Shown piece after piece: positions 4,072-61,463 of a stretch of DNA of 64,000 nt. The translations under genes and the position numbers were made by a program. Each line of letters begins with the position of its first letter. The first letter of the stretch is position 1. This DNA comes from Paraspadella gotoi (lineage: Eukaryota; Animalia; Chaetognatha): positions 14,328,770-14,392,769 of the forward strand of contig CM119271.1 of the NCBI GenBank assembly GCA_051294375.1, given 5' to 3'. Under the pieces are notes generated by a model. It made no database searches. It was not told the origin of the DNA and worked only from the letters and a program-made list of their open reading frames with translations.

Positions 4072-4850
4072 CGCTATGGTTTTATTTATAACGCTGCTCT
4101 AAGCTGAGATTCAAATAAGAGACTGTAAAATTAACTTTGCTTTTTCAGATGATTATGTTGATGAAGATGCTGTGGTCTGTCATAAAATCGACGACTTATC
4201 ATTCAAGGCGGAATACTTCCACCAAATTCGATCGTAATCAGGATTTTTACATATTTTTCTTTTTGATCTTTAATATTTCATTATCTTCAACGATCGCTAG
4301 AAAACGCTTCTCCTAAATTCCTCGAGTCCGATGTTTTTGGAGATATAGATACCATAAAATAGCATTTCATTCAATATACATACATGTATGACTGCTAAGT
4401 CCAAATATTATTACAAATACTTGATGCTACCTAGTTTTTTAAAAAATGTTATTGAAAGATAATTTAGTATTAAAACTAGCTGTCTTTTCCTAAAGTTAAA
4501 TAAACAAGCTCCATGAAAGGATATTAACTGAAGAATTGATATAATTAATAATTAAAAATAAAGTATACAAAGACATACAATTCCGGATTTACCTACGGAA
4601 ATAGCGGTAGTTAAAAAGAAGACAATGGTCAACGCGTTCAGACTCGATCGAGAAAAAAAAATCGACCGCAAAAATGAGGAGAAAAAAAAGATAGATAATA
4701 GATGCTACACTTATTAATGACTCGGACAAAACCAGCTATAACGAGATACAATTCTTCTACCGTAGCTACATTACGTAGGCCCTTCACCGCTCAACCTTTT
4801 TCCTTCTTTTAAATTATGTGTAAAAGAAAAACCATTCCGTGGCTCGACCT

Positions 4851-6829
4851 TCAAGCCATGAGCCAAGCATTGCTTCCGCTGATTACTTCGACGTCGTTTT
4901 CAACGATTTTCTTGACGAGGTCGCGATATTTGGTCAGGTTATCAACAGACGACGACTTTCCCGCCAAAACCCACTCGCCCGATTCGGCGTCGGCGAACGA
5001 TTCTAAAAACCAAAGCGATTGAGGTAATAATCTTGTTTGGCGTCACTTTTGGGTTCCGCTTTCCCTCCCTACCTTCCCTTACTTACTCCCTTCCCTTACT
5101 CACGACTCACCTTCCTCCTCCTTCTCCGCCATTTTTTCATCCGCCTTCTCCTTCTCCTCGTCGTCTTCCTTCTTTTCCTTCTTGCAGTTGACATCGCGAA
5201 GGCAATGACCGAAACTGTCGCAGGTTTCATTGGCCAGACAAAGTGAGGACAACTGCTTCCGTTCCGCCTCGATCCCGCGTATCAGCCAAAGAGAGGGATC
5301 ATCAGCGAGCCCGATCCCGCCGGCGGGGCCGCGACCGAACGGCGACGTCAACCTCGCCGTTATGGAATCCTGGTCTCGTCGAGGGGAAGCGGAAAGGAGC
5401 CAATCGGATTCGCGGATTTGGGATCGAATAAAGCGACCGGTAGAAAAAGAGGAGAAACTCTCTTCTTCATTAAAGAGCCACTCATTTACGTTAGACTCTT
5501 TGTTTTTGTTATGATTGGTAAGAGCTGGTGACTTTCTGTTCTCCCCTAAAAACACCCTCGCTCTTCCACCTCTCGGTTTCAACAACCAATCCGAGACCAG
5601 CTTGGACGGCGAACCCGACGCCGCTCTATCGACGCCTCGGCGTCCTGGAGACAACGATGGAGCATCTCCGGCGATGCAGGATAGGGCATCGAGGTTTTCG
5701 ATCTCCATGGCGACGGCCTCTGGCAGGGCGCGGCAACGAGAGGTGCAGGCGCCGATGTGGCGGTGATGAACATCGCGCGGCGTCGATGCCAAAGATTTCT
5801 GCGGCAACAGCCAATCGTCGACGGCGCCTCTCACGGATCGAGGCGGCGACGAAGGCGGCGGCAAATTTTTAGCGGAAATCAGCCAATCATCGGCCAACGA
5901 TCGAAAAAGCGACTCCATGTGATCGGAGAAAAAAGCAATGGCCGCTTCGCCATCCGTAGATGGATGCAACCATCTCTCCCAACCGGCGTCGGCCTCTTCA
6001 TCATCCTCAACGATCGGCGCTTCCTCCATCTTATCATCATCGACGTCCGGCGTCGGCAACCAACGGCGCCAATCGCGAGGGAATCGAGACTCGTCGAAGA
6101 ACTCGATCAGCGGCGTCGCGGGGGCGGAATTGGCAGAGGCGCTGCTGGCGGCGTCGAGCCAATCGGAGGCGTTGACGGTGGCGTCGAGGTAGGCGTGTCC
6201 GAGCGGGACCGAGGCGGCCTCCTTTTGAGCTACGATAGGGCGGCGCGGCGAGGCGGCGCCGCTTTCGTCGTCCAAAACGCTGAAATCTGAGGAAGAAAAA
6301 GATCCGACGCTATCACTTCGACGATGCATCTTGAAAGGTGAGGCAGCCTGAATGAAGTTATTTAATTAGAATATCATTCATTAACTGGCAAATTTTTGCC
6401 AGTAATTGCCAATTGCCTTTTTTTCGCCAAAATAGTCGATGGCATCGCAAAGCGGACGAAACCCTTCCTCCACGGAGCGCTTGAGGGAATCCAGCTCAGC
6501 GACGTCGTCTTCCACCATCAATGTCGCAGGATACTCCATAATCGATTCCATCTTGGCGTGTTCCAGAAATTCAACCTGGTTTTGAACGATATAAATACTA
6601 GTAACAAGTATAATAGCTTGAATTTTTATATATTTAAATGAATGTACTACTAAAACGCACGACCCTTCCCAACCTGATCGAGAAGAAAGGTTTCCCTGGA
6701 TCTAAGATGCTCGTGCAGACGGCAGGCGGCGTCGCGGACGCAACTCTTGACGACGGACGAGTTGCGCCAGAGAGACGCCTGACGGCGGATCACCTCGTCA
6801 ACCGGGACAAGCCGTGACTGCGACGACAT
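4851..6829 (-). CDS. NCOA4: Nuclear receptor coactivator 4 (ARA70 domain; ferritinophagy receptor family)
   Basis: N-terminal CVRDAACRLHEHLRSRETFLLDQ|VEFLEHAK matches the ARA70 motif (LRSREVWL.EQV). Also EIENLDALSC, CLANETCDSFGHCLRDVNC and about ten (D/E/S)WL repeats; ends SNAWLMA*. Confidence 0.85.
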
Positions 6830-7192
6830 CTTTAGCAGGGGTCAAGTCCATCCAAATATAAACAAAAACCGGAGTTTAACTAGCCTTTCAATCTAAAATA
6901 AAAACAAAAATCAACAAAAAAAATTGATAAAACGGACGTATTAATATACTCCTCTTGATCAATCAACAAAAATCAGTAGTAACAATTGATTGGAGATTGC
7001 AAAAACTAAAAAAAACGTTTCAATTCTAAATATACCACTGATTATACCAATGGATAATTGGATATGCTACTTGAGCCCCGAATCTAAGACTAATGTATAA
7101 AATAAATTTCGACTATGAAAAGGCAATGATCAAACAAAAACCTCCGGCTCATTGAAATAGGTGCGACTTCCAACAAACACAAACTCGACACG

Positions 7193-9324
7193 TCAGCCGC
7201 CGCCGTCGCCGCCGCCGCGGACGCTTTTTTCTTCGGCGTTCTCTTGATGTTGTAGTGAACAAATCTTGACGTGCTGATTGAGGTTGCTCCTATCGTTGAA
7301 GGTCCGTCCGCACTGGGCGCACGAATAATCCCGCCTACACTCGTGAATAGCGCGTACGTGTTTCTTGAGGTTGTCCTTAAGAGAGAATTTTCTGTCGCAG
7401 TGCGGACAGACAAAGTCCTGAACTCGATCGTGCACAATGCGAACGTGGTTGCGACGGTAGCATTCCTTGCCGAAGGCCTTGCCACAAATATCGCAGGTAA
7501 AATCCTTGATCTTGTCGTGGATGGCTTTTTTGTGGTCGGCGAGGACGGCGGCGTACTTGAAGCGCTTTTGACAAAGTTGGCACTCGAAAGGGCGGAGGTT
7601 GCGGTGGACGCCCTCTACGTGTTTGGACAGTTTGGGGTGGTTCTCAAATGTTTTGTCACACTGATTGCATTTGAGCCACTCATCTTCTGGACGTTTTTCG
7701 TGGACCTGGGTTTGAGAAGAGAGATTGTAATAGGAAAGACAAAGAAATTTAACTTGACAACAGAAGAAATCTTAAATTTAACTGTTAATATAGCAGGGAT
7801 GCTATGTTATAATATCACATTAATATCACATCCTCATAATCCACCAACCCACCGATTTGAGATGCATGTACATCGACTTGGCCAAGATCTTCTTTCCGCA
7901 CAATCTGCAAGAATCGGTGACCTTAAGGTGAACCATCTGATAGTGTTGTTGCAAGTAGTGCTTCAGTTTGAAAGCTTTGCCGCAATCGCCACAAACGTGA
8001 CGCCTCTCGGTCCCTTCATCGTGGGCGGTGGCCAAGTGTCGCCGCAAATTTCCTTTGAGCACAAAGGTTTTGGCGCAGACGTGACAGGTGTGGTCCCGCC
8101 TCTTGTCGTGCACCACCCAGATGTGGTTCTTAAGGCTGCCCGAGGCGTAAAAGCCGAAACCGCAGAGCGGGCAAATGTAGTTCTTGATGTTGAGGTGGAC
8201 GGCTTGGTGGTGGCGTTTGAGGAGCTGCTTCAGGGCGAACGACTGAGAGGACGATGGATTTGAGAGAAAAAGATGTAACGAAAAATAACAACGACAAAAT
8301 CAAGATAAAGCAAGGAAACCTTATCGCATTCGCAGCAAGGGAACTTCTTTTCCTTCTCGTGCCGTTCCTTGACATGAAGTCGCAAATCGGCGCGGGAAGA
8401 AAAAGTGGCGCCGCAGAGATCGCACGATGCATTGGCGAGGTGATGGTGCAAAATGTGACGCCGTAGACTGGCCAACTGGGAAAAGGATTTGCGGCAAGAG
8501 GAGCAAGGGAAGTCGGAGGCCGCGTGGGCGGATTCGTCGTCGTTCTTGTCGTCTTTCTTGTCGTCGTCACCGTGATTATCGCAGAAATGGTTCTCGAGAT
8601 TCGAGGCCAAATAAAATCCTCGATTACATCGAGAGCAGAAATGTTTCTTGGTTTTGAGGTGGAGGCTCTCGCGGTGTCGATCCAGGAAAACTCGGCGAGT
8701 GAAGATTCTGCCGCAATCGAGACATTCGTGACTTCGCTTGAAGCCCTGAGGCCTGCGTTCTGAACGAATCCGAGGAGGAAGAGAAGTTGTTATTGACGTT
8801 GTTGTTGTTTTAGTGGAGTTTTCGTCAATTAGACGAAGATTATCGGTCAATTCATCCTTGTTCGACACATTTTGAAGGACTGTCGAAGGCTCATCGAGAA
8901 TAATGAATTCCGAATCCAATTCATCAATGGCGTTGGGTGTTGCGCTCAAAGGTTCCACCGACGCAGCGTCAACGAGCGTCGCTACCGAAGAAGAAACTTC
9001 TCCTTCGTCGCCGATGCCCGGCGCCGAATACCCGAGGAGTAGTTTCGTCGGCATCGGGGAGGAATCGTCGTTTCTCCAATCAACGGCGTCAAAAGTTTCG
9101 ACCTTAAAGTGGTCATCGTCGAAGGTGGCGTCGCCGTTGTCTTCCAGCCGCAAATCAAAGGCATCGATGCGGACGGCGCCCTTGAAGGATTCGCCTTTGA
9201 GGATCCAGAGTTTCTGCTGCGACGGAGTTTCGACGCCGAGAACGAAGTTGGCGGAAGCGGCGCCGGCGATTGCACGGAGGGAGGAGATCGTCTCGAGAAA
9301 ACGCGCCTGCGCGAACGACGTCAT
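7193..9324 (-). CDS. Multi-C2H2 zinc-finger protein, copy A (terminal +1 frameshift relative to copy B)
   Basis: Many CxxC-x12-HxxxxH fingers (CLDCGRIFTRRVFLDRHRESLH, CSSCRKSFSQLASLRRHILHHH, CHVCAKTFVLKGNLRRHLATAH, CAQCGRTFNDRSNLNQH) over 3 exons. N-terminal module LETISSLRAIAGAASANFVLGVETPSQQKLWIL. Start ATG uncertain. Confidence 0.85.
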
Positions 9325-9597
9325 GGCAACCAACGCATCGTTTTTAGTTTTTACATCCGAAAATTTTAAGGGCGGTTGGAGCCATTTTATGAGCTATTTT
9401 GAAAAAATATTGGAATATTGAATAAGATTATAAACACGGGACAGATGGAACATGCGCTCATTGTTTTCGCGCTAAATAAAAGGAAAGGAGAGAAGAGCGG
9501 TGACCGGACGGTATTAATATGATATAATAATATAATATAAATAAAAGATGGCTACTAATCTGCAAATTCGAGAAAAAGAAATTCTGCAATGGTAATT

Positions 9598-11601
9598 TTT
9601 AATTCATTTATGGAATATTAATTCTATATCGGTCCGCCTCGCCACGAAATGCTCTTTTGTTCGCGGTAGTCGATAGATCGCGCGTTTATCAGAGTAAGAA
9701 AAATGAACAAAATAACATTGAGAGATGCAAAAAAGAAAAACCAGGGAATGCCATCACATGACCGGCATCGACCAATGGAAGCCCGCCGAATCCTCCTCGG
9801 GCTCCCTCTCCCTAATCCGGGCTTTGATCTTGTCAATCGTCTCCTGAAGAACCCGGAGGACGCCCCAAGCGACGCCCTGTAGAGAAACCGGAAGACGGTC
9901 CTACGCGCGCCAGGCCGAACTCCAGCGTGAAGGAAGACGCCGAGATCCACTCCGCGACGTCGATCCCGGAAACTTCAAGACCTCCGAGAAGAGATCCCCG
10001 AAGAGAGCGAAGCGCCACGTCAAGGGTCGACGGAAGGCAGAGCGGGGCGCAGAAAAGAAAATCGTGCGGCGGCGTAAAATCCAAATGGAGAACGAGCGCC
10101 GTCGTCTGAACCGGGCAGCGATCCGAGAGCGGTAAAACATCAAGACGCCCAGAAGCCCGATCCTGACGGTCTAAAAAACGTTGATGGAACCAAACGCAAG
10201 ACTGCCGCTGAGGAAGGTGGCCCGCGTCGCAGCGAAGAGAAAAACACTGAAGGGCGACATACCGATGCTAGAGCGACGAAGAAGCGCGAGCGTCGGAGAA
10301 AATCGCCTGGCGCGACCGGAAGTGGCGTCGTGTCGAAGCGTAAAACTGAGGCCGCAACCAGGGAGGAAGTGTAAGAGATACATTCTTAGAATAATACTAA
10401 ATGAGATTGAGATTTCATCAATCTCATTTGCATATAGTAGTAAATCATTTTATGTGCAATTGATTTTTGTACTGTAATATTTTTAGGCATATATTTGGAT
10501 TTTATATTACTTTTCTATATTGTTTAGTAGTTTAATTGATTCATAGATAATTTTGTTATAATTTGATAGATTAATTATGTCATTAATGATTGAGAGTTTA
10601 TCTCTATCCTGGCTGACCTTTTCATAACTCATAAATACTTTATTATTCAAAGGTGAAATCAATGGTCAGCTTGGATCAAGGGAAGTACTCTCATGTTAGA
10701 GTCCCATATCTCTGAAGTCCTTGCTCAATGTATTAAGTGTTGAATAGTTGTATTAAATAAACAATAATTATAATAATAAAGATAAATTATGTTTCTATTT
10801 GTATTTAGTTATTTAGCTATTGTAATAAATCTCAGGTAAACTAGAAAGGCAGCGTGAGCACTATCACTGAAGATATAAGTAACAAATAATATATAATTCA
10901 TAACCTGAGTCCCACTCCTATAGAAGAATTCCGAGGTGAGGGAGTGCATCTCTCAAGGACCCCCTTGAGAAGATGCCGGTCCAAGGGGCGCTCTCCAACC
11001 GGCGCTCCCTTCAGGGAGAGTCGCTAGGATTGCTGATCCGTGAAGGTTGATCGAGCTGTCGACGAGACCCTTCTCGTGAAACTACCCGTGGAAGCGCAGG
11101 ACGTCTTCAGGAGAGTCTTCAGACCCTTGAGCCACTCTATCCCGAAGGAAGACGTCAGCCAAAACGCCCAACTCCCGTGAAGCGCTCCCCGTTAGATCTC
11201 TCCAGCATCGGCACTTTGTGGGACCGAAGACGCGTAAACTGAGGCGAGACCGCTTGGCGGTCTGGGGCGGACACCGTCTGAGAGGGGCCGCCCTCTGGAG
11301 TCGGAACAGCTTGGAAATAGCTTGGAAGGAGATCGAAGCGAGTCAGAGCGGCGAAGCGTAGTGGAGAAAAACCGGACCGATATGGAATTGTCACATGTAA
11401 AAAAACCTAAGAGGTAAACAAATTAGGGCGAGGAAATAAAGGAAAAACTCCCGAACCCCCCCCTCCCTTCTCCCCCAACCCCCTTCCCTACGCCACGCCA
11501 AAGCCACAAAAAAAAAAAAAATGGTAGGAGACAAAGGGGCGGACGGTGAGATCGTGGCGAGGCGGACCGATATAGAATTAATATTCCATAGAGGAATTAA
11601 A
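9598..11601. mobile_element. TIR DNA element 1 (AATT-flanked, Sola1-like TSD), non-autonomous, inserted upstream of zinc-finger copy A
   Basis: TIRs TTTAATTCATTTATGGAATATTAATTCTATATCGGTCCGCCTCGCCACGA / TCGTGGCGAGGCGGACCGATATAGAATTAATATTCCATAGAGGAATTAAA, flanked by AATT. The paralogous site in copy C (~16315-16335, GCAATGGCAATTGCGGG) is empty. No transposase recognised. Confidence 0.75.
10370..10884 (+). repeat. AT-rich dispersed repeat beginning TGTAAGAGAT (possible solo LTR) nested in element 1
   Basis: Same 5' end and AAATGAGATTGA-n-TCAATCTCATTT hairpin as the copies at 32510-32632 (-) and 54460-54583 (+). Contains AATAAA and a candidate ...GTAACA end at 10884; no TSD seen. Confidence 0.5.
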
Positions 11602-11605
11602 AATT

Positions 11606-12595
11606 CTCATATCGGTCCGCCTCACCACGAAATGCCCCATGCCATGAAAGCGGTTATTTCAACAAAAATATTTCTATCGAAAAAGACGAAATAAAAAAAT
11701 TTGAAAATTTCCAAAAAAAGAAAAAGAAATAGAGAAACAAAAAGAAGACGAGGCGTTCAAAAAAAACGAGCTAAAATCCACTACGCCCCCAACGGGTAAC
11801 AACTCACCGCTAGAGAGCGTCAAGACGCTGGAAAGACTCGCGTAGAAAATGTCGAAATCCTTCATCCAAGCTGTTTAATGACGAGATCATCGTCGTGTGG
11901 ACAGACTCCAGTCCTCTGGCCCGGACAGAAGGCGCGGCTGCCTGTCCCGACCGGCCGCCACTTGGCCCGACAGCGGTGTAAGCAGCTGATGCGGGCGAAA
12001 CCCCCACTGCTCGGCCGGGCAACGGAACTGTAGGTTGGTACGGGCCGAGCCCCCTAAAACTGATGGAATCGGGCTGCAGAAAACCAAGGTTATAGGGGAG
12101 AGAAGGCAGTGGGGGCGGTGGCGGCACCGCTCAGGTCCTTTGACCTCTCATATCCCACTGAGGGATCTCCATTCCCTCCCTACGACCCAGAGACTGTCCG
12201 AACGTGTACGGTAGACGGGCCCCCTGCCCGAACGTTCGTCTCTGTTATAACTTAAAAATTGTTATATTGGTTGAACCAATTTTATATATATGAGTGGATT
12301 TCAGTCGTAGAAACCATGAAAAAATTCGAGAAATTCACGAAAAATCGTGAAAAACTCGAGAAAACGTGATAAAAAACGCGAAATCTAAACGGTAAGAACC
12401 GAACTCGATGAGCGTGAAAAAAAGATTGACGAGATCAAAGCCCGGATGAGGGAGCCCGAGGAGGATTCGGCGGGCTTCCATTGGTCGATGCATCTCTCGA
12501 TGTTATTTTGTTCGTTTTTCTTACTCTGATAAACGCACGATCTATCGACTACCGCGAACAAAAGGGCATTTTGTGGCAAGCCGGACCGATATGAG
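11606..12595. mobile_element. TIR DNA element 2 of the same family, opposite orientation, AATT TSD
   Basis: AATT|CTCATATCGGTCCGCCTCACCACGAAATGCCC ... GGGCATTTTGTGGCAAGCCGGACCGATATGAG|AATT. Its right ~170 bp (12424-12595) is the reverse complement of element 1's left end (9624-9838). Confidence 0.8.
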
Positions 12596-12685
12596 AATTG
12601 CAGGTTTTCAATGCTAACTAACACTATTTTTTTAAACGATTTTAATTTTCTCTTTTTGCTNNNNNNNNNNNNNNNNNNNNNNNNN

Positions 12686-13575
12686 GCTATATTAACAGTT
12701 AAATTTAAGATTTCTTCTGTTATCAAGTTAATTTTCTTTGTCTTTCCTATTACAATCTCTCCTCTCAAACCTAGGTCCACGAAAAACGTCCAGATGATGA
12801 GTGGCTCAAATGCGATCAGTGCGACAAAACATTCGAGAACCACCCAAAACTGTCCAAACACGTAGAGGGCGTCCACCGCAAACTACGCCATTTCGAGTGC
12901 CAACTTTGTCAAAAGCGCTTCAAGTACGCCGCTGTCCTCGCCTACCACAAAAAAGCCGTCCATGACAAGATCAAGGATTTTGCCTGCGATATTTGTGGCA
13001 AGGCCTTCGGCAAGGAATGCTACCTTCGCAACCACGTGCGCATTGTGCACGAGCGAGTTCAGGACTTTGTCTGTCCGCTCTGCGACAGAAAATTCTCTGT
13101 TAAGTACAACCTCAGGAAACACGTACGCGCTATTCACGAGCGTAAGCAGGATTATTCGTGTGCCCAGTGCGGACGGACCTTCAATGATAGGAGCAACCTC
13201 AATCAGCACGTCAAGATCGTTCACTACAACATCAAGAGAATGCCGAAGAAAAAAGTGTCCGCGGCGGCAGCTGTTGCTGACGAGCAGGTTCAGGACTTTG
13301 TCTGTCCGCACTGCGACAAAAAATTCTCTGTTAAGTACAACCTCAAGAAACACGTACGCGCTATTCACGAGCGTAGGCGGGATTATTCGTGTGCCCAGTG
13401 CGGACGTACCTTCAACGATAGGAGCAACCTCAATCAGCACGTCAAGATCGTTCACTACAACATCAAGAGAACGCCGAAGAAAAAAGCGTCCGCGGCGGCG
13501 GCTGCTGCTGACGTGTCGAGTTTGTCTTGGTTAGAACTCGCACATATTTCAATTGAGCCGGAGGTTTTTGTTTGA
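12686..13575 (+). pseudogene. Inverted 3' fragment (last exon plus part of the preceding intron) of the C2H2 zinc-finger gene, copy B
   Basis: Near-identical reverse complement of 14037-14924. Open ORF RIVHERVQDFVCPLCDRKF...IEPEVFV*. The 5' part is absent and the copy begins at an N gap. Confidence 0.7.
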
Positions 13576-14924
13576 TCATTGCCTTTTCTATTTAATAGTC
13601 AAAATCGATTTTTTACATTTTAGTCTTAAATTAATTTCGGGCTCAAGTAGCATATCCATCGCTTCAGAGCAAGACTTCTACGACGATTCCGAGTGAGGAA
13701 ACGGGTGTATCGCATGTCTATTTTGAAAGCATTCAACAGATGAAAATTTTTATTTTACTTGCGAGGCGGACTTTACTCGATATCTACGGGACCATCTTTT
13801 CGAGACATCTATATGTTGAAATTATAAATGATGTCCTGTGTAATTGGATCGCAAGTAAAATAAAAATTTTCATCTGTTGAATGCTTTCAAAATAGACATG
13901 CGATACACCTGTTTCCTCACTCGGAATCGTCGTAGAAGTCTTGCTCTGAAGCGATGGATATGCTACTTGAGCCCCGAAATTAATTTAAGACTAAAATGTA
14001 AAAAATCGATTTTGACTATTAAATAGAAAAGGCAATGATCAAACAAAAAACCTCCGCTTCAATTGAAATATGTGCGAGTTCAACCAAGACAAACTCGACA
14101 CGTCAGCAGCAGCCGCCGCCGCGGACGCTTTTTTCTTCGGCGTTCTCTTGATGTTGTAGTGAAGTGACGTGCTGATTGAGGTTGCTCCTATCGTTGAAGG
14201 TACGTCCGCACTGGGCACACGAATAATCCCGCCTACGCTCGTGAATAGCGCGTACGTGTTTCTTGAGGTTGTACTTAACAGAGAATTTTTTGTCGCAGTG
14301 CGGACAGACAAAGTCCTGAACCTGCTCGTCAGCAACAGCTGCCGCCGCGGACACTTTTTTCTTCGGCATTCTCTTGATGTTGTAGTGAACGATCTTGACG
14401 TGCTGATTGAGGTTGCTCCTATCATTGAAGGTCCGTCCGCACTGGGCACACGAATAATCCTGCTTACGCTCGTGAATAGCGCGTACGTGTTTCCTGAGGT
14501 TGTACTTAACAGAGAATTTTCTGTCGCAGAGCGGACAGACAAAGTCCTGAACTCGCTCGTGCACAATGCGCACGTGGTTGCGAAGGTAGCATTCCTTGCC
14601 GAAGGCCTTGCCACAAATATCGCAGGCAAAATCCTTGATCTTGTCATGGACGGCTTTTTTGTGGTAGGCGAGGACAGCGGCGTACTTGAAGCGCTTTTGA
14701 CAAAGTTGGCACTCGAAATGGCGTAGTTTGCGGTGGACGCCCTCTACGTGTTTGGACAGTTTTGGGTGGTTCTCGAATGTTTTGTCGCACTGATCGCATT
14801 TGAGCCACTCATCATCTGGACGTTTTTCGTGGACCTAGGTTTGAGAGGAGAGATTGTAATAGGAAAGACAAAGAAAATTAACTTGATAACAGAAGAAATC
14901 TTAAATTTAACTGTTAATATAGCA
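12686..14924. repeat. Long palindrome: ~1.08 kb arms (12686-13764 and 13849-14924) with an ~84-bp spacer
   Basis: Left arm ends TATTTTACTTGCGA; right arm begins TCGCAAGTAAAATA. Arms differ by only a few substitutions and indels. The spacer region is also found inverted at ~16410-16557. Confidence 0.9.
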
Positions 14925-16738: not shown

Positions 16739-16812
16739 CTTCTTCTTCTTCTTCTTCTTCTTCTTCTTCTTCTTCTTCTTCTTCTTCTTCTTCTTCATCA
16801 TCTTCTTCCTCC
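16739..16812. repeat. (CTT)n microsatellite immediately downstream of the STAG stop codon
   Basis: About 20 perfect CTT units followed by degenerate units. Confidence 0.9.
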
Positions 16813-20178: not shown

Positions 20179-20213
<35 letters not shown>

Positions 20214-42394: not shown

Positions 42395-42449
42395 CTCGAG
42401 GGACGAAAGACGCCGTCGGGGGGAAAAAGTTTATTTTGAACTCGAGCGT

Positions 42450-51678: not shown

Positions 51679-53351
51679 TTTAACAACATGGATTCTGGAG
51701 TTTGTATTTTAATAATTAAAGTTTTAACTTTTTAAAATTTTGACCGATTTTGAATATGGATACGATGACCTTTTCTGATCCAGTGTTGTTGTCATAAATT
51801 TCTTTGACTAAAAATAGAAGAGAAAAGAGAATAGCGGTAACAGGGAATCAACGTAATGGGGAAAACTCATTTTATTCAAAAATCACAAATTTTTTTACTG
51901 AGTTAAAAGTTAAAACTAACGACTTCTTGTCCCAAACCACAATAAACAACTATGTTGTAAACTTATTTAAAAGCATAACTTTTATTTGATAAATTTGAAA
52001 GTACTGGTGCAGTGGTGCACTGACGAGGGTTGTTACTCAAAAATAAAAAGTTTTGTACCCAGTTGTATAGGGACTTACATTTATTTCTAAAAGCTAATTA
52101 ACTTCTAAATCTACAGATCAACGAAAACGCGAAATGACGCGCAACAACACAAACTTTCGAAAAGCATCGCCTCAAAATTTGCGTCGATCTGTAAATGTTT
52201 CTTGTTGTCCAGCTATTGCTTTTAAAATTGAAAATACTCACCCTAAAATTTAACGGCCGATTTTGGAAAGGTTTTAAATTTATTCTTTCTGTCGCTAGGT
52301 TTTAAAATAATTTATATTTGGGCATTGCTTTTTAAATTTGGCTATTATGCATCCGAATAAGGGTGCAGAGCTTGGTGGATTTAGAAAAAAAATAATATTT
52401 TTGTGTAACAAATGCGGTAATAATTATAATAATAATCGTAAAATGCGAAGTGCAAATAGAAAATAAAAACGTCGTCAGAATATAATTCCCGACTGATAAA
52501 AGTAGAAAGGTGAATAAGGCACAATGACGAATATTCGTAGCACAGCAACAACAAAAACGAACCTTTAATTTCTCTTTTATATACATATACAGCTTAGCTT
52601 CATTCATAGTACCTCATTGAATATCTTTTTTAAGTATTACTGTATTAAGTCTGTATAGCCTTTATTAAAAAAAAAAATACAGCCTTCCAAAACTAAATAT
52701 TTTCACTGTTATTTTGGGTTCTTTTTCAAACGTCATTTATGTTTAATTTTAATAAAAAAAAGTCACATCATCGTCATTAAAACGGTAAAAAAACATAACA
52801 GAGAAAAAACAGAGAAACAACACTAAAAGAAACAGAAGTAGCCATGCAACTAGACAGACGTGAAACGAGACTAGAAGAGAAAAACTGGAGGGCAACTTGT
52901 ATCCGAGTACATGATATTGGTGTTAAAGTTGGTTGACAACGAAGGCGTAAACGGTTTCATCCTTCACATCCTAAACATGAATTCATAATAATAATAATAG
53001 TAATAATAATAATAATTTTTGGCCGAAAAAAGGAAAAAAAAAAGAATTCGCCGTGACGAAAGGAAGCCAAACAGTTTCGCAAAGCGTATCGAGGCGGCAT
53101 GCGCGTCCACGCTTTAGGCTATAATTTATTAATATCAATTAATAAACTTGACTATTTAGCAGCGAACAAACTTCCATGAATATATTATTTTTTTTAAATA
53201 TATAAGTCGTGAACGCAATGAGAGCTTCGCGCTCTTTTTTCGGACAAAAAGAACGAACATTAAATTCAATCATTGACTGTATAACAAAGTGTTAGTAGTG
53301 CGATTAATTAGTTGTTGCGACTTTATTTAACTAAAGGTTTTTCGATCGACT

Positions 53352-53415
53352 CTATCTCTTGACTTTGAGGGTGGCGCGCTCGGCCATCGGCGGCGAAGCT
53401 AGCGGGGAGATCTTG

Positions 53416-53452
<37 letters not shown>

Positions 53453-54416
53453 ATGCGGAAGACGACAAAGAGGACGAAGAGGAGATGCGCGGCGGATAAG
53501 AGGATCGAGAATCAGGTGAGGTCCGGCTTAACTGGAATTAAAAAGGATATAGAATAACGAAACGAAACGAAACGAAACGAAACGAAACGAAACGAAACGA
53601 AACGAAACGAAACGAAACGAAACGAAACCTGGTGATGAGGATACGCCCCGTTTCGAAGGCCACCGTTGGGGACGGATGTGATGTAATTTGTCGGTGGCGC
53701 TTGAAAAAAAAAAAGGATTGGGACGTCAAACAAGACGAAGCATTAAATGTTCGAGAGTTTCTACGGAGATCTTTGCTCACCATTGACGGAGTGAATGAGA
53801 GCGAGTCTGGCCATGTGGCACCCGTAGCAAAGCAGACGCCCGTCCAAAGGGTAGCAGCGTTGGTCGGGTTCGTCCGTCAACTGCATGTTGCAATCTTCGC
53901 AGTGGTAACAGTCCACATGGAAGTCCCTGTGAAAAAAACGAATGATAATCTAAATCTTTTACTAAATATAGTCTTTCTCTCTAAACTCACCTTCCCATGG
54001 AGACGACTCTGACGGTTTCCCCCGTCCCGTCGGGCACTGGGGTGATCGGTCCACCGCAGGCGTGACACTTTGGGGCAAAGACGGCGTGGTAGTCGGCGAC
54101 GCAGTAGACGCGCCCCTCGGGGTCGACGGTGAAGGGGACGCCGTCGAGGCACTCTTGACAGGTGCAGCACCTGGTGAGAGGTGAATAATGAGGACGATTA
54201 GAACAACAGTCCAAAGAGCAAGGCAGAAATGCCTTCCTTTTTACCTGAAGCATCCGGGATGATAGGACTTCCCCATGGCCTGAAGGATCCGCTCCATGAT
54301 CGGATGCTGACAAACGGCGCACTTGTCGGCAACGTGGTGAAACCCAGAGTAAAGATAATTCTTCTTCGCAGTAAACTTTGCCGCTCACGTCGTAGAAGTT
54401 TTTCCCCTGGAAGGAC

Positions 54417-54447
<31 letters not shown>

Positions 54448-55322
54448 AATAAAAATCAATGTAAGAGATGATAATTTAATATGATCTTAAATGAGATTGA
54501 ATTTCCCAATCTCATTTACATATTTCAGTATTAAATCTAAATGTGTCTTAATTTCATTTTGGATTTTGATATTAGTTCTGTTTCTATATCAATACCGTTA
54601 ATTCCATTTTCAATCCAAGTATTCTTCCGTTATACCTGAGCGTTTTGGCGCAAGAGTGGCAGACGAAGCACGATGTGTGGTAGAGGTTTCCCATCGCCTG
54701 ACACGCCTCCGAAGCGCCTGTCACTGGGAGACCGCAGGCGAAGCAATTCCCGAAAAACTCTGGCAAATAAAATGTCAAGTTCGGTCACAATTTCGATTTA
54801 CGAATCTCCCTCTTTTCCAATTATCCCTCAATCAAAGTCATTACCTCTTCCCCCCGTCTTTTACTTACCTTTTCCCATCGACATCGAGGAGGGAGCCCCA
54901 CCGGCCGCCTCCTTCTCCATCTCCTCCTCCAACTGCTTCGTCAACGCCTCTAACTTCCGCTCGGCTGCGCTCGGTCCCGGAGTCTTCGGCGGCGTCACCA
55001 TCATCGGCAACATGACGCGTCCGCGGACTTTGGGCGCGACCGCGGTGGCGACGCCGACGCTCTCCGCGCCGCCGCCGGCGGAAGTAGACAGCGCGATGGC
55101 TTTACCGGGCGTTGCACGATAAGCCGAATGTACTGTGGCGCCGTGATCCCCGGGATTTTTGTTGTTGTCATCGCTGTTGTTGTTGTTGTTAAAGTTTTTC
55201 CGAGGGTTGGGGGCGTGGGAGTGATAAGATTTATGATTGGCGGAGTGATTGGCTGGGTGATTGGCGGTGGAGAATCCGAGGATGGCGGAGCTCATATCGG
55301 TTCGATGATTTCCTTGATGCAT
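53352..55322 (-). CDS. WTIP: Ajuba/LIMD1/WTIP-family LIM protein (3 LIM domains)
   Basis: [21 protein letters not shown]; [36 protein letters not shown]; [15 protein letters not shown]; [16 protein letters not shown]...[34 protein letters not shown]; [14 protein letters not shown]. One apparent +1 indel near 54357. Confidence 0.9.
53556..53628. repeat. (AAACG)n pentanucleotide microsatellite at a WTIP intron donor
   Basis: About 14 tandem AAACG units. Confidence 0.9.
54460..54583 (+). repeat. Dispersed TGTAAGAGAT repeat copy in a WTIP intron
   Basis: Matches 32510-32632 (-) and the start of 10370 (+). Confidence 0.8.
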
Positions 55323-55739
55323 CGCTCGGAACCGCGGGAAGAAGAAAGGGACGCGTGATGACGAAAAGAACGAAGCGATTCAAAGGCAAAAGTGAATAAG
55401 TATCGCGCGGATATTAAAAGTGGAAGCTGAGGCGCTTTATTTCCAAATTAAATTTCTCGAGACGGCGACGACTGAAAAAGACTGATTCTCTCCAAATGAA
55501 ACGTCGACGCTTCTTTTTTTTTTTGCTTTAAGTCCCGTTGCTTCCCATTCAACGACAAATTTCTAACCCAAAATCCCCTTTCCGTCGATGTTATTTAACC
55601 TAAAAACGGAAGATAAACCTGAAGCAAGATTTCTTGGTATACCTAGAAAACGGGGAAACAAAAAACTTTGGAAGCTAATCTGAACAAATAAAATCGACTG
55701 CAATTTGAAAGATGAAAGTTCAAATTCTCGTCTCTTGGA

Positions 55740-56509
55740 TCAAGCCGCGGTTTCCATGGCCTCTTCTTCGTATTTGCCTTTGGCCTTCGCCATGGCCTCC
55801 AACTTGGCCTTGGCCCGTCTGTCCAAGATCTTCTTGCGATCCTTGTCCAGTTTGAGCTTGACGATCTGTAAGTTCGACGGGTGGATGCCGACCTGGTAAT
55901 AGAGGGGGGAACGAGTCATAAAATATTGAAAGAAAAGATTAAAAGTTAGTTATTTTTGTATAAACAGTCTCATTGGATAAATATAATTTAACTTTACCGG
56001 AACAGTGGCGCCATTAGCCTTTTCTCGCTGAATTCTCTCGATATAAATCACGTACTTCTTTCTGTAGACCTACAATTAAAATAAACGGATTTCAGTCATA
56101 AGTTTTTTTACATTTTAACCAATGAAATAAGTACAACCCATATAAATAGTTAATAAATATCAATTGTTTTATCAAATTTGAATTTTAAGCCTAACCAGCC
56201 TACCGACCTGAGTGACCTTGCCCGTTTGTTGACCCTTGTAATGACCCCGAGTGACGATGACCTCATCGTCCTTCCTGACGGGCATGCTGCGCACATTGTA
56301 CTTTTGTCTTAAGTCCTTCGACAAGGGGGCGCTCATGATCTTGCGGCGAATGTGCGACGGCGCTTGAAAGTGGCGTCGCCTGGAGAAGAGAAAGATATAT
56401 TAGCTTTGTTATAAACACTAGTCTACAATAAAATACATTAGCGTTATAATATAAGTAAAAGAAACCTGTTCTTTCTTCTGGACGAAGAGACGAAAGGATT
56501 GAGCTTCAT
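55740..56509 (-). CDS. RPL26: 60S ribosomal protein L26 (uL24), 4 coding exons
   Basis: [15 protein letters not shown]|[40 protein letters not shown]...|[24 protein letters not shown]|[23 protein letters not shown]...METAA*. Confidence 0.98.
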
Positions 56510-57140
56510 CTTTTTTTTTTTTTAGTTTTATTCGAAAATAAACTTATCAATAAAAATCTGTAAAAACAAATGTAGTAGTAAACGATCATGAGGGAGAAAA
56601 AAAAAATTCATTTTAAAGGAAAAAATTAAGAATTATGAGCAGTAAATCGCGATGAAAATGAAAAAAATATACGTAAACAGAATTCGTTTAAAATGAAGCT
56701 TTTTTTTAATCAGTTATTATCGTTTTTAACTAAACCATAATGCTGAATTTAAAAAAAAATCGAATAAAAACATGAAACAAAAAAAAAAAAAGTTTTTGAA
56801 TGGATGCTAATTGAGACTAGAAGTTTATAAGTTTCCGTTCACGATGCGACAGAGGAAAAACGATTTCTTCTATTCGTAAAAGTGTTTTCTTGCAATATTC
56901 CTATTACATACTATTCAATACAACGTCCTATTCAATTCAAAAACGACAGGAATTTTGAAATGTAACGAAAATGTACGGATAAGTTTCCGTACGGAATAAA
57001 AAGTGTCGATTTCGAGCTACGAAGGGACTCGAGAAAGAGAAGTAAAAGGGTTAAACTTAAACAGAGAGAGAGAGAGAGAGAGAACGAGAGGGAGTCAATT
57101 GAATACCTAACAATGAGAAAACGAGCCTTCGTACGGAGAA

Positions 57141-57251
57141 AATCCTCACGTTATCGCCCCCATATCTCCGCCCATTTAAATTAATTAATTTAATTATTAA
57201 TCAATTTAATTAATCCTCACGTTATCGCCCCCCATATCTCCGCCCATTTAA
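57141..57251. repeat. Direct duplication of a ~39-bp unit (AATCCTCACGTTATCGCCCC(CC)ATATCTCCGCCCATTTAA) separated by a TAATTAAT-rich spacer
   Basis: Two near-identical copies at ~57141-57179 and ~57212-57251, between MLEC and RPL26. Confidence 0.85.
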
Positions 57252-57805
57252 CTTCCTCGACCGAAAAGGAAAAAAAAAGGAAATAGGAGATCTGTAGCTT
57301 TGAACGACGACGCCGACGATCCATCGATCCAACAATGAATGAGTTTCTTTTCTTAACCTCACAAAGAAATCCAGAACTTTATTCCAGTTCTTCCCCATTC
57401 ATCTCGAAGCCGTCACACACCTCGAGGTGGCGTTAATATTGACTACTCGCCGTGAGCGACTTAATACTCACAAAGCGCCCGTAGTTTGATTTGCAAGGGG
57501 GGAAAAAAAAGGTAAGTATTTCAAATTTATCTATCGTCTCCCAATACGCTCAAAAAACCAAGAATAAATATTTGTAACGTGAATTTATTACGTTTTCTCG
57601 GTCGCTACGGAGACAACAGAAACTAAAACTATGACATCATCGAAAACACGAAATTAATGTTAATTCGTTTGACGCCAAAGCCAAACGGATTGGCGAAACT
57701 ATTATGATGCATTTGAAAAAAAAAATCACCTTGACCGAAATAGAGAACACAGAACCAGAATTATGAAGGAACGAACATTACTGCACGTCACAGTAGACAC
57801 ACTTT

Positions 57806-57810
<5 letters not shown>

Positions 57811-57897
<87 letters not shown>
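57811..57897. repeat. (CT)n microsatellite in the malectin 3' region
   Basis: About 43 CT units. Confidence 0.95.
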
Positions 57898-57899
<2 letters not shown>

Positions 57900-57939
57900 C
57901 AACCTCGTCACTCATTCTCCCTCTCATGTCTTTCCTCGG

Positions 57940-59769
57940 CTACAACTTGCAAAGACAAAAGAGCAAAGGGATGAAGGCGCCGATGGCGACGAGAAGAGGA
58001 AGCAGCGTCGTCGTGTCGTCGGCGGCGTAAGGATCCGCCGCTTTGGGTCCCGACGTCTTGTACTTCCGGTCGCGACGCTGCTGATCCTGGCGATGGCGTT
58101 CGGGAGTTGGCGCTTCGAAGTCGGTTTCGTCATCGGCGTCGTCGTCGTCTTCGTCGTCGGAGGATGATTGCACGTCGCGGCGACGATCGCGTTTCGCCTC
58201 TTTATTCTATTAGGGAGAGAGAGTGAGAGAGAGAGAGAGAAATGAACAACTTAATAATTTCTAAATCCAAATTCTCTTTGAAGTCGAATAAAAAAACCGA
58301 CCGCGTCGGAATGTTCCGTCTTGAAGGGTGCGAGTTGAGGGACTTGGCTCGGCGTTCCCTTGACAACCAAAATAGCGTTGATCTTGGGATTGTCTCGTGA
58401 TCCTTTGATGAACTCCACCCGCAACGTTCCATCAAACGAAGTGTCTTCGCCCTGTTATCCCAAACGGATGATCGTGAATACCATATAAGATTTATCGTAT
58501 TTATTATCTTGTGATTAATAAACAAAGATGGAACAAAATTCGAATAGGCTGTGATCGAAAAGACGCATAATCTTTACCAGAAGTTAGGATTAGTTTCTCG
58601 CATTCGCTTTTTTGTATTCTCTACGTTCTCTCTTCTACTTTTTTAAAATAATTATATTATTTAATAATATAATTTTTATATAGAAGAGTTTGAAATGAAT
58701 TTTCAACAACGATTTTATTTTAATAAAAAACGGACATATTTTTTAATGCTGATGAAGGCTTGTAGTCAAGCCGAAACATGCCCGTTTTTTATTAAAATAA
58801 AATAAAATTCATTTCAAACTCTTCTATTTATTACACAACGAAAAGAAAGGATTATACCACAATTTTTATTTATTAATTTATTACAAGTTTCATAAAATTT
58901 TCAAAATTCTTTCCTAAGTTTCTATAAAATTCCTTTGCCAAAATATTAATTTTAGGGACCTGAACTTTGAGCATTCCGTCGGCGACGGTGAAGGGGACGA
59001 GCTCGTCGTGAGCGACGCCGTGACCAACGATGGAGAAGATGTCCAAGTCGCTGACGACGACGTGTTCGCTGTTGACGACCACATCGAACACTTTCTGCCC
59101 GGGGCCGTTGAAGTACACTTCCGAGAATTTTAACACTGCATGAGATAAGAGCGATAAGAAACGAGCTCATTTCTTTCTAAGCATTCTGTATTATCTTTTT
59201 CGTTCTTGACATTCCATCTTGGCATTCTTTACATTCGTTCCTGGCATTTTTAACATCCTTTCCCATTCACTTTCCTACATACCCAAAACGTAGTCGCCGT
59301 CCTCCTTGATAGGAATGTTGTACCCAAAGGTTTGCGTGTGGTATCGCTCCGTCTGGTAGAGTACCTGGTCGTGCGGGTGGACCCTGTGGATGCTCAGTTG
59401 TTTCCCGAAGTCGGAGGCGATGCCCACGTGACTGGACAGCGGATCTCGTTTGTAGGCGATGCCGTTGACGTCGGTGTGGGCGTCGCCGCCGGCGTTGATG
59501 GCGTATATCACGTTGGACGATTCCAGGCCTTTTGTGAAATTGTCAAAAAAAAGAAGTTTGGGAACGTGAGTTTAAAACAAATTTAGCCCCGAATGTGACT
59601 CACCTCCGGCGGCGCCAGGAAGTAGCAGAGAAAAGAGATGTAAGTGAAAGAGGAGGAGGAAGAGCGAGGACGTGAGGCGGCGGCGAAACCCGAAAAGGCG
59701 GTGGGAGGCGAGAGGCGATGATGGGTCGCGAGGCGTCGTCGTCGTCGTCGTCGTCCGCGTCGAGATCAT
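57940..59769 (-). CDS. MLEC: Malectin (ER lectin)
   Basis: Signal peptide; [20 protein letters not shown]...[10 protein letters not shown]...[11 protein letters not shown]; [18 protein letters not shown]...[16 protein letters not shown]; [16 protein letters not shown]; [13 protein letters not shown]...TM...[10 protein letters not shown]. Confidence 0.96.
58680..58827. repeat. Inverted repeat flanking the hammerhead motif in a malectin intron
   Basis: ATAGAAGAGTTTGAAATGAATTTT...TTTTATTTTAATAAAAAACGGACAT / ATGCCCGTTTTTTATTAAAATAAAA...AAAATTCATTTCAAACTCTTCTAT. Confidence 0.85.
58745..58786 (+). ncRNA. Minimal type I hammerhead ribozyme remnant (Penelope-like), cleavage triplet mutated GUC->GCC
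   Basis: AATG-CTGATGA-A-GGCTTG-TAGT-CAAGCC-GAAAC-AT-GCC-CGTT: conserved CUGAUGA and GAAA cores, perfect 6-bp stem II, palindromic mini stem III and AAUG/CGUU stem I. Confidence 0.65.
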
Positions 59770-61463
59770 TTTGTAAAAAATTGTTTTACTCTTTCGAGTT
59801 TGTTTCACTAATTTTGTTCAAATTTATGAATAACGACTGTTAATTAAAAAAAAAAATTAAAAGATAAAAATTCAGGACGCGAAAAAAGGGAACGAAACAA
59901 ATAGCGAATATAAACAAAACGTAAATAATAAAATTGTTAAAAAAAAAACGATCACTTTAGATCAGGAACGAAAACTTGATTCGGCGAAAAAAAAGACGAG
60001 GTTTAATGTACGAAGCGCAATGTAAAAAAACTTTGGTTTTCAAGCGTCATCACAAATCAAGCGAAAAAAAAAACTAAACAAAAACAAAAAGAAAAAAAAA
60101 ATTAAGTGAAATATTTTCGGGCATCCGTCAAAGATTATAAATTAATCGTGAATAAATCAGCGTGCGACAAAAACGTTTTGCATAAACATTTCTATTACCT
60201 GAATTTAAAAGAAATTTAAATTTTAAACCCTGCTTAAAGTTCTCATAATAAAAACAATGTCATGCTCAAAATATTCCTCAATATCTAAACTCTTTAGGAT
60301 GCTGGAATTGTAAAAAGGACACAAAAAAGTGGCGAAAACTTTTACTGAGAGGTTAGTACGTTTTCATTTTTAAATCATACCATTTAAATGGAGTCTAATA
60401 TTCTAAAAAAAGCGCGGTATACATGGTGAGAAAAATGTGACAATTTTGAAGGCAAAGCGATACGAATCTCACAGTAAGCAATGGAGATTATATTCGCGCA
60501 AAATCTCAGGGTCAAATCGTATCAATGATCGAATCTGAGAGGAATAAAGATTAAAAAAAAAAAAAACGCCCAAAAAGCAGAAAATTTTCAAAATGAAAAA
60601 TAAATCTCTCAAGGTTTTAAAAGATTTCTCGTAGTTAAAGCGAAGATTACAATTAATTAACCTCACAAGTGAGACGGAATTTAAATGCTACAATTCACAC
60701 AAAGAAGTAGTCACGGCGAAAAAGAAAAGTACAAAAAACACGGGTTAACTTTGTTTTAAATCTAAAGCGATTGTAGTACCATGTCCTTCAAAACTAATGG
60801 ATATTTTAGCCGATGACAACCAGTTACAGTAAAGGTAAGAAAAACTAACATGACTTCAACTCAGTTTTTTTGACAAAGAAAATATATTTCCTCAATCATG
60901 TGGTACAAAGTTAATTTCATGTAGTATAATGAATAGAGACTTTCAACTCATCGTGTCATTCGATGATTTGACGCAAAAAGACTTTCGACGGTTGGCGAAC
61001 AAAGGTCGAAACTTCCTTCAAATTAATTCGATACCAACACTCGACGTTGATTTATGAAAAGTGGACTAGTAGAACATGATTAAACGAAAAAAACTTGTAA
61101 AGAAAGAAAATCTCCATATACGCCGCCATGGGTGCTTTGGATGAGATACGTTTTCATGATATATATGATAGATAATACATTAAAAAGAAGTATATATTAC
61201 AGAGTTTTATCCGTTTCTCAAATAGCTCTTGAGATCAGTCATCGGTCATTATTGCACCATCTTTTTTTTTAGCTTCAATTCGCAAAACACGAATTTTTGC
61301 AAGTTGAGAAATGCCCTCGGACTACAAACCCATTACAAGCGTTATTGTGCACTAACTATTAATTTTTTTTTCATACGAGTTGCGATAATTGGTTTAGCTT
61401 TGGAAAAGTCCGTGTCGTTTTAAATTCTTCTTCGAATCGGGCGGTGAAGCGGTTCCGTGTCTC

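What the first reader, a model, noticed from the sequence alone, without database searches (positions are those of the whole stretch)
4120..59840. U-rich 3' splice acceptors just upstream of most start codons: spliced-leader trans-splicing signature
On the minus strand a strong polypyrimidine-YAG sits about 25-150 nt before the ATG of most genes: TTTTACAG (~4123), TTTTTATTTTAG (~6893, NCOA4), TTTTTTTTGTCAG (~22589, STAG), TTTTTTTTGTGTCCCAG (~27225, NDUFB9), TTTTTTTTAACCAG (~28079, ATP5ME), long T-run-GGCAG (~30524), TTACCTCCAG (~37296, RUVBL1), TTTTTTTTTACAG (~43071, PET117), AATTTTCAG (~46437, ACL4), CTTTTAG (~49767, YLPM1), CTATTTTTAG (~51808, PSTK), TTTTTACAG (~56558, RPL26), TTAATTAACAG (~59837, MLEC). 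The two ZNF paralogs keep the AG while Y varies (TAG ~9472, CAG ~16198). A TTTTTGTTGAY branch-point-like motif recurs upstream of NCOA4, STAG and ME. With such short gaps there is little room for a promoter plus a non-coding first exon, so SL addition sites are inferred.
Basis: partly seen in the sequence, partly recalled or inferred. Interest (0 to 1): 0.8.

Follow-up and report, generated by a model that had tools for sequence, protein, structure and literature searches.

The report
Arrow-worm spliced-leader acceptors in gene run
Twenty-three unrelated genes lie head to tail on one strand, most with a splice acceptor just before the start codon and no matching donor, so they are likely sites where a spliced leader is added to cut operon-like transcripts apart, a mechanism already known in arrow worms, from which this DNA likely comes.

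Summary
Observation confirmed. All 15 AGs are at the stated coordinates, 12 are the best-scoring acceptor within 200 nt of their ATG, and the 22 upstream windows beat shuffles (0/200). Donors upstream are at background level. A spliced RNA run shows no cis joint at RPL26; it crosses four gene boundaries unspliced while internal introns are removed; two contigs end 1 and 4 nt before the next gene's AG. An NDUFB9 ortholog from an unnamed relative (62% identical) begins with the 11/11 translation of the published chaetognath leader SL2.0. That places the clade among arrow worms and points to leader addition on this gene. New detail: a poly(A) hexamer lies 140-200 nt upstream of 9 of 15 AGs (scan-corrected p 0.0008), similar to nematode intercistronic spacing. 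No leader junction was seen in this organism's own contigs, so each site remains inferred. SL trans-splicing and operons are published for chaetognaths, and this scan already noted a nine-gene arrow-worm operon on other DNA of this genome. Verdict: likely right but a known mechanism; what remains of interest is the length of the co-oriented run and the spacing rule.

The parts
1119..64000 (-). Run of 23 co-oriented protein genes (GFUS, MADS-like, NCOA4, ZNF1, ZNF2, STAG, FKTN, MZT2, NDUFB9, ATP5ME, ZNF3, CCDC149, RUVBL1, ME, PPM1K-like PP2C, PET117, ACL4, YLPM1, PSTK, LIM, RPL26, MLEC, partial MTUS-like); 19 unbroken from 64000 to about 13900
Evidence: Sequence, gene models, Pfam, YLPM1 homologs.
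59837..59838 (-). Candidate SL acceptor AG, MLEC (67 nt to ATG; ATTAAA 165 nt upstream)
56558..56559 (-). Candidate SL acceptor AG, RPL26 (48 nt; ATTAAA 147 nt upstream); the upstream RNA contig ends at 56559 and no cis joint arrives
51808..51809 (-). Candidate SL acceptor AG, PSTK (12 nt; AATAAA 173 nt upstream)
49767..49768 (-). Candidate SL acceptor AG, YLPM1 (36 nt; ATTAAA 199 nt upstream)
46437..46438 (-). Candidate SL acceptor AG, ACL4 (61 nt; AATAAA 188 nt upstream)
43071..43072 (-). Candidate SL acceptor AG, PET117 (126 nt; only 140 nt after the ACL4 stop)
40324..40325 (-). Weak candidate acceptor (GAG), ME; AATAAA 117 nt upstream; TTTTTGTTGAY just upstream
37296..37297 (-). Candidate SL acceptor AG, RUVBL1 (27 nt); a rival AG at 37322 scores higher
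30524..30525 (-). Candidate SL acceptor AG, ZNF3 (53 nt; AATAAA 152 and 160 nt upstream); the upstream RNA contig ends at 30528
28079..28080 (-). Candidate SL acceptor AG, ATP5ME (38 nt); crossed unspliced by an RNA contig (by arithmetic and bin depth)
27225..27226 (-). Candidate SL acceptor AG, NDUFB9 (34 nt; ATTAAA 143 nt upstream); crossed unspliced by RNA piece 27108-27734; an ortholog in a relative carries SL2.0
26034..26035 (-).
22589..22590 (-). Candidate SL acceptor AG, STAG (47 nt); TTTTTGTTGAY just upstream
16198..16199 (-). Candidate SL acceptor AG, ZNF2 (145 nt; ATTAAA 166 and 194 nt upstream)
9472..9473 (-). Candidate SL acceptor AG, ZNF1 (148 nt; ATTAAA 126 nt upstream)
6893..6894 (-). 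Candidate SL acceptor AG, NCOA4 (63 nt); two TTTTTGTTGAY upstream
4123..4124 (-). Weak candidate acceptor, MADS-like gene at 4071 (51 nt; ATTAAA 146 nt upstream); the AG at 4104 scores higher
12686..14923 (.). Perfectly centred palindrome (97% over 2258 nt) beside a 25-N gap; likely an assembly artefact; it holds the only plus-strand Pfam hit above a curated cut-off

Best explanation
Most of these AGs, which lie 12-148 nt before start codons in a run of 23 same-strand genes, are likely spliced-leader (SL) trans-splice acceptors of an arrow worm, where a 36-nt leader from a separate SL RNA would be joined to give each gene a capped 5' end. Mechanism, steps marked. (1) Shown: the genes are co-oriented with short gaps, and spliced RNA contigs run across several gaps. 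(2) Inferred: Pol II reads through several genes as polycistronic precursors. (3) Inferred from the spacing: the upstream mRNA is cut and polyadenylated after an A(A/T)TAAA that sits about 120-200 nt before the next AG, leaving a U-rich intercistronic stretch. (4) Inferred, and seen only in a relative and only in translation: the spliceosome uses the donor of the SL RNA, because no cis donor is present, and joins the leader at the AG. Genes after long gaps may instead have their own promoter and an outron, and a few sites may be wrong.
For: Acceptor scores exceed shuffles, the reverse strand and post-stop windows. Best donors 60-300 nt upstream are at chance: 5 of 15 reach the threshold vs 3.9 in shuffles, against 89 of 103 internal acceptors (in-sample matrix). 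Run X1 is spliced RNA (15 of 15 shown joints are intron-sized skips that match modelled introns). One contig has pieces 27108-27734, 25568-26324 and 24803-25479, crossing the ATP5ME/NDUFB9, NDUFB9/MZT2 and MZT2/FKTN gaps unspliced while internal introns are removed. Another contig crosses RPL26/LIM. The joint table (3 of 3 shown) has no joint to the RPL26 AG. Contigs from the upstream gene end at 56559 and 30528, 1 and 4 nt before the AGs; 2 of 7 listed true record ends lie within 4 nt of a candidate AG (p about 2e-4, post hoc). P0066, an NDUFB9 ortholog 62% identical to the window protein, has residues 3-13 equal to published SL2.0 read with TGA=W, 11 of 11; none of 201,660 shuffled windows comes within 7 mismatches. 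A(A/T)TAAA lies 140-200 nt upstream of 9 of 15 claimed AGs (rotation null with window scan p 0.0008; blind-chosen AGs 10 of 22, p 0.004; ATG-anchored p 0.27), vs 56 of 570 decoy AGs and 8 of 103 internal acceptors. About half of Paraspadella gotoi genes are trans-spliced and 18% are operonic (PMC12460157, passages).
Against: No leader-like loose end was seen at any AG in X1. In one search, 12 of 140 loose ends were shown and 128 hidden, 6 of 8 were shown and none was leader-like, and 56531-56558 is uncovered. The contig crossing the NDUFB9 AG is unbroken, so no leader branch survives there. Only 1 of 166 fetched proteins shows a leader peptide, and it comes from another species. A contig across two genes does not show one transcript, and all RNA evidence is one run of assembled contigs whose RNA status is a guess in its record. 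At RPL26 the contig runs on past the hexamer to the AG, which does not fit cleavage right after the hexamer as the only fate. Over whole gaps (up to 1 kb), 10 of 15 sites have a donor-like sequence, as shuffles do (8.6), so a long cis intron is not excluded by sequence alone. The taxon is inferred, not shown by a named close homolog.
Confidence: 0.85

Rival explanations
1. The AGs end ordinary cis-spliced 5' UTR introns; each gene has its own promoter and a short non-coding first exon in the gap.
For: The sites score like internal acceptors and carry yUnAy at a similar rate (13 of 15 vs 77 of 103). Donors in this genome are degenerate. ZNF3 has a good donor-like site 116 nt upstream (8.9). Three gaps exceed 1.3 kb. 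By arithmetic, a 90-nt stretch before CCDC149 (34319-34409) is uncovered and has GT and AG ends, so it might be a cis intron.
Against: Donor scores equal shuffles. RNA contigs that remove internal introns cross the NDUFB9 AG unspliced, and ATP5ME by arithmetic. No joint reaches the RPL26 AG from the 1.2 kb laid upstream. Where a hexamer lies 140-200 nt upstream, a promoter, an exon and an intron of at least 62 nt (the shortest modelled) would have to fit there.
Confidence: 0.06
2. The AGs are unused by-products of U-rich 3' ends and AT-rich promoters in a compact genome; genes start transcription individually and the bridging contigs come from overlap or read-through.
For: Only 6 of 22 sites are significant alone; the sites were picked by eye; no leader junction was seen in X1; assembled contigs fuse adjacent transcripts.
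Against: Collective enrichment over three controls. Hexamer spacing is anchored on the AG rather than the ATG. Contig ends fall at two AGs. An ortholog carries the leader. 23 of 23 modelled genes share a strand.
Confidence: 0.09

Closest known systems
Chaetognath SL trans-splicing and operons (Spadella cephaloptera, PMC2481426 and PMC2566580; Paraspadella gotoi, PMC12460157)
   Same: Same leader family (SL2.0 on an ortholog); housekeeping, ribosomal and mitochondrial genes; short gaps; same-strand clustering. In the S. cephaloptera BAC table all four minus-strand rows are labelled transposon. A poly(A) site 3 bases from the acceptor in RPS14-PCNA resembles the contig ends at 56559 and 30528.
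   Different: The longest annotated P. gotoi operon has nine genes under a 250-bp rule; here 19 genes run unbroken and 23 share a strand, though one transcription unit is not shown. A 120-200 nt hexamer-to-acceptor spacing was not found in the passages read.
Nematode SL2-type operons (C. elegans, Trichinella spiralis; PMC7668243, passages)
   Same: Intercistronic distances of 74-213 nt (median 124; 129 in C. elegans), a U-rich element before the acceptor, and coupling of 3' end formation to trans-splicing through CSTF2.
   Different: Nematodes use an operon-specific leader; chaetognaths are reported to have none. The Ur motif and any CstF link were not tested here.
Ciona intestinalis operons (PMC2760879, passages)
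   Same: An upstream RNA end directly abutting the next acceptor, as two contig ends suggest here.
   Different: Ciona operons have no intergenic DNA and at most six genes; here most hexamers sit well upstream of the AG.
Trypanosomatid directional gene clusters (PMC7986045, passage; cluster sizes recalled)
   Same: Long same-strand runs of unrelated genes resolved by a leader.
   Different: There all protein genes are polycistronic and nearly intron-free (the latter recalled); here genes are intron-rich and only about half of chaetognath genes are reported as trans-spliced.

Membership tests
SL trans-spliced genes | Unpaired 3' splice acceptor upstream of the start codon | tested here: met
   Acceptor enrichment; donors at shuffle level within 300 nt
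SL trans-spliced genes | Leader joined at that AG in this organism's mRNA | tested here: inconclusive
   No leader-like loose end among those shown; 128 hidden, 2 hidden; assembled contigs only, no raw reads offered
SL trans-spliced genes | Leader on orthologous transcripts | tested here: met
   1 gene (NDUFB9 ortholog P0066), 11 of 11 residues in translation; 1 of 166 proteins scanned
SL trans-spliced genes | Leader absent from the gene's own DNA | tested here: met
   Best match of three published leaders in the window has 12-13 mismatches
SL trans-spliced genes | SL RNA gene with Sm site elsewhere in the genome | not testable with these tools
   No genome held; no Rfam match in the window; published for S. 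cephaloptera 5S clusters
SL-resolved operon | Co-oriented genes with short spacing | tested here: met
   23 of 23 modelled genes on the minus strand; median stop-to-ATG gap 459 nt; 25 plus-strand ORFs scanned, the only hit above a curated cut-off lies in the palindrome
SL-resolved operon | Polycistronic precursor from one promoter | tested here: inconclusive
   Contigs bridge 4 gaps directly and 1 by arithmetic, of 9 gaps fully inside the laid stretches; contigs do not show single molecules
SL-resolved operon | No internal promoters | not testable with these tools
   Needs CAGE, nascent RNA or chromatin data
Nematode SL2-type operon | Poly(A) site about 100-200 nt before the acceptor | tested here: met
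   By hexamer position only: 9 of 15 at 140-200 nt, 13 of 22 blind sites at 117-217 nt; cleavage sites not mapped
Nematode SL2-type operon | Operon-specific leader and Ur element | not tested
   Papers report no operon-specific leader in chaetognaths
Chaetognatha (taxon) | Closest homologs are chaetognath | tested here: inconclusive
   Closest homologs are unnamed; one carries the chaetognath leader; no named close hit and no tree built

The most novel reading that the evidence does not exclude
Arrow worms transcribe very long directional gene clusters, here 19 or more unrelated intron-rich genes over 50 kb as one or two polycistronic units, twice the longest annotated chaetognath operon. They would cut them apart by coupling poly(A) cleavage to leader addition across a fixed 120-200 nt U-rich spacer, converging on the nematode SL2 architecture without an operon-specific leader.
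Probability: 0.3. Interest if true: 0.6.

Novelty: new member of a known kind. Interest (0 to 1): 0.3.

Why it matters
The mechanism is known for arrow worms, so the sites themselves are routine. Two things could matter. If the whole run is co-transcribed, animal operons reach a size nearer trypanosome gene clusters, and distance-based operon counts for this phylum are too low. The hexamer-to-acceptor spacing gives a testable cis rule for how an animal without an operon-specific leader couples 3' end formation to trans-splicing, and a sequence-only way to call operons in chaetognath genomes.

Tried and rejected
No whole genome is held, so no SL RNA gene search was possible. Rfam gave 0 matches in the window. 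No RNA holder is listed as such on record; the one holder, X1, is an RNA guess kept as contigs. Both metagenome scans for relatives' loci (ATP5ME, YLPM1) found nothing. The profile search for ATP5ME relatives gave 74 proteins and no leader peptide. The uncovered stretch 56531-56558 is not counted as evidence. The RUVBL1 block end near 34410, within 4 nt of two AGs before CCDC149, is arithmetic in an indel-rich region and was left out of the 2-of-7 count. A sponge (Oscarella) or Xenoturbella origin was considered from recall and dropped: no close named homolog, and the chaetognath leader on the nearest clade. Gene names were not found in the three readable supplements of PMC12460157; its operon table (xlsx) is too large to read, so whether this run is already listed there as operons is unknown. 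The BAC/EST alignment files of PMC2481426 could not be read. TTTTTGTTGAY as a branch point is unproven: it fits yUnAy but lies only about 13-18 nt from the AG and was chosen post hoc. Only 24320-39470 and 55250-57790 were laid with RNA, which hold 5 of the 15 claimed sites; the other 10 have no RNA test.
Full report
Setting. The window is animal DNA, 45% GC, with GC-rich exons and short AT-rich introns (103 modelled, median 87 nt, shortest 62). I modelled genes by hand from the minus-strand sequence and snapped boundaries by script. Two of the 16 models had an intron without an in-frame solution, and several boundaries were corrected by hand afterwards. All 23 genes I could recognise lie on the minus strand. 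Pfam supports RUVBL1, MLEC, RPL26, ATP5ME, PP2C, STAG, C2H2 fingers, malic enzyme, MZT2, PET117, GFUS and CCDC149, and weakly FKTN; homolog names support YLPM1; the other names are recalled. I scanned 25 plus-strand ORFs (long or intergenic ones; the rest were not scanned). The only hit above a curated cut-off is a zinc-finger copy inside a 2258-nt palindrome next to an N gap, likely an assembly artefact. The median stop-to-ATG gap is 459 nt over 21 gaps (55-1694).

Observation. All 15 AGs are where stated. A matrix trained on internal acceptors picks 12 of the 15 as the best AG within 200 nt of the ATG. Over 22 genes the best score averages 7.3, against 5.5 in shuffles (0 of 200), 3.4 on the other strand, and, in the 12 genes with room for the control, 8.2 against 5.1 after stop codons. 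Only 6 of 22 are significant alone and several are weak, so the signal is real but collective. T falls from 0.55 to 0.35 and A rises from 0.19 to 0.32 across the AG.

Cis or trans. Within 60-300 nt upstream, 5 of 15 sites have a donor above the lower quartile of real donors, against 3.9 in shuffles; over whole gaps up to 1 kb it is 10 of 15 against 8.6. For internal acceptors it is 89 of 103 (in-sample, so somewhat inflated). The acceptors therefore look unpaired, though a long intron cannot be excluded from sequence.

RNA. One run holds the region (X1, assembled contigs, RNA by guess). Its joints match modelled introns (15 of 37 shown; 2 of 3, the third being an AT..TA joint with a 21-letter side that I take as spurious). 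One 4274-nt contig has pieces 27108-27734, 25568-26324 and 24803-25479, so it crosses three gene gaps and the NDUFB9 AG unspliced while internal introns are removed. Its remaining 613 letters and the bin depth carry it across the ATP5ME AG to about 28469. A second contig crosses RPL26 to LIM. At RPL26 no joint arrives from the 1.2 kb laid upstream, and the upstream contig ends at 56559, the A of the AG. Before ZNF3 the upstream contig ends at 30528, 4 nt short of the AG; its orientation in the table is ambiguous by 14 letters. Two of 7 listed true record ends fall within 4 nt of a candidate AG (p about 2e-4, post hoc). Against the reading: no leader-like loose end was seen (12 of 140 shown; 6 of 8), and the NDUFB9 crossing is unbroken. 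Short leader branches can be pruned in such assemblies (recalled), so this is inconclusive. Only 5 of the 15 claimed sites lay in the stretches laid.

The leader and the organism. Homolog searches gave close but unnamed relatives (65-80% identity) and no close named one. Earlier scan notes called this genome an arrow worm, which sent me to the chaetognath papers. P0066, an NDUFB9 ortholog 62% identical over 162 residues to the window's protein, begins MG-EAYNWVVSICL. The published leader SL2.0 of Spadella cephaloptera and Flaccisagitta enflata (PMC2481426 Table 3, section 12 read) translates to EAYNWVVSICL when TGA is read as W. That is 11 of 11 residues, at the very start of the protein, 61 nt before the true start by residue count. 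None of 201,660 shuffled windows came within 7 mismatches, and no other of 166 fetched proteins matched. This suggests a gene caller read through a leader-bearing transcript end. It ties the nearest clade to Chaetognatha and points to leader addition on one window gene's ortholog. The window has no leader-like DNA (12 or more mismatches).

A spacing rule. A(A/T)TAAA lies 140-200 nt upstream of 9 of 15 claimed AGs. With the window position scanned, 0 of 300 shuffles reach this and a rotation null gives p 0.0008. For 22 blindly chosen AGs it is 10 of 22 (p 0.004), and anchored on the ATG it is not significant by rotation (p 0.27; by shuffle 0.013). Decoy AGs in the gaps show 56 of 570 and internal acceptors 8 of 103. 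Six of the 15 lack such a hexamer in that range. This resembles nematode intercistronic distances (74-213 nt in Trichinella, median 129 in C. elegans), which are tied to coupling of polyadenylation and trans-splicing (PMC7668243, passages). It does not explain why the RPL26 contig runs to the AG; unprocessed precursor, or a second 3' end at the acceptor as in Ciona (PMC2760879, passages) and RPS14-PCNA (PMC2481426), are both open.

Mechanism. Likely: read-through transcription of several genes, cleavage after the hexamer, and leader addition at the next unpaired AG. Shown: co-orientation, unpaired acceptors, bridging contigs, hexamer spacing, and a leader peptide on one ortholog. Inferred: the precursor, the use of each AG, and the taxon. 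Confidence 0.85; cis introns 0.06; unused sites 0.09.

Novelty. SL trans-splicing is published for chaetognaths: nearly half of P. gotoi genes, 18% in operons, the longest with nine genes, no operon-specific leader (PMC12460157, passages and three supplements searched; operon table unreadable). The 2008 paper already remarks on clustered same-strand genes, and its BAC table has only transposon-labelled rows on the minus strand. SL trans-splicing is also reported in acoels, glass sponges and other groups (PMC9911081, PMC10282587, PMC7986045; passages). Searches for chaetognath with operon and trans-splicing, chaetognath with intercistronic, and Paraspadella with polycistronic (listings only beyond the papers named) showed no description of the spacing rule or of 19-gene units; subscription papers are not covered. 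Verdict: a new instance of a known system, interest 0.3; the long-unit reading has probability 0.3 and would merit 0.6.

Noticed in passing
window 12661-14923: A 2258-nt palindrome (97% self-match) beside a 25-N gap duplicates the end of ZNF2 on the plus strand; likely a gap-filling artefact.
   Followed up: partly
window 27376-27673 and 33967-34234: Clusters of single-base indels against the RNA contigs; one lies in ATP5ME exon 2 and shifts its C-terminus away from that of relatives, so the assembly likely has local errors.
   Followed up: partly
window 3310-4071 (minus): A two-exon gene whose first exon resembles a divergent MADS/SRF box by eye (recalled; no Pfam hit); an earlier scan note describes a MADS-like family elsewhere in this genome.
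   Followed up: no
window 42394-42450: Only 55 nt separate the PET117 stop from the first ATG of the PP2C gene, with no good acceptor or hexamer between; possibly a dicistronic mRNA or a downstream start.
   Followed up: no
window 25207-25374: Between MZT2 and FKTN the best acceptor (25303) lies upstream of an AATAAA (about 25273), so the two mRNA ends would overlap and be mutually exclusive, as in SL1-type nematode operons (recalled).
   Followed up: partly
window 35242-35320 and 20994-21063: Two GC-AG introns (RUVBL1, supported by an RNA joint; STAG, by model), and possibly a third in RUVBL1 at 37135-37202.
   Followed up: partly
window 9600-12660: A 3-kb block without a recognisable gene or Pfam hit, with short internal inverted repeats; possibly a mobile element; it breaks the gene run.
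   Followed up: partly
window 13955-16325 vs 7059-9597: ZNF2 is an 87-94% identical tandem copy of ZNF1 that lacks part of the finger array and appears frameshifted.
   Followed up: partly
window 39478-39487: A 10-N gap inside the malic enzyme gene appears to hide coding sequence.
   Followed up: no
window 32506-32632 and 54460-54588: A 129-nt element (94% identical, inverted orientation) occurs in introns of CCDC149 and the LIM gene and is highly polymorphic in the RNA contigs.
   Followed up: no
P0066: Gene callers that read TGA as W can expose spliced leaders as N-terminal peptides in metatranscriptome proteins; this could serve as a taxon and trans-splicing tag.
   Followed up: partly
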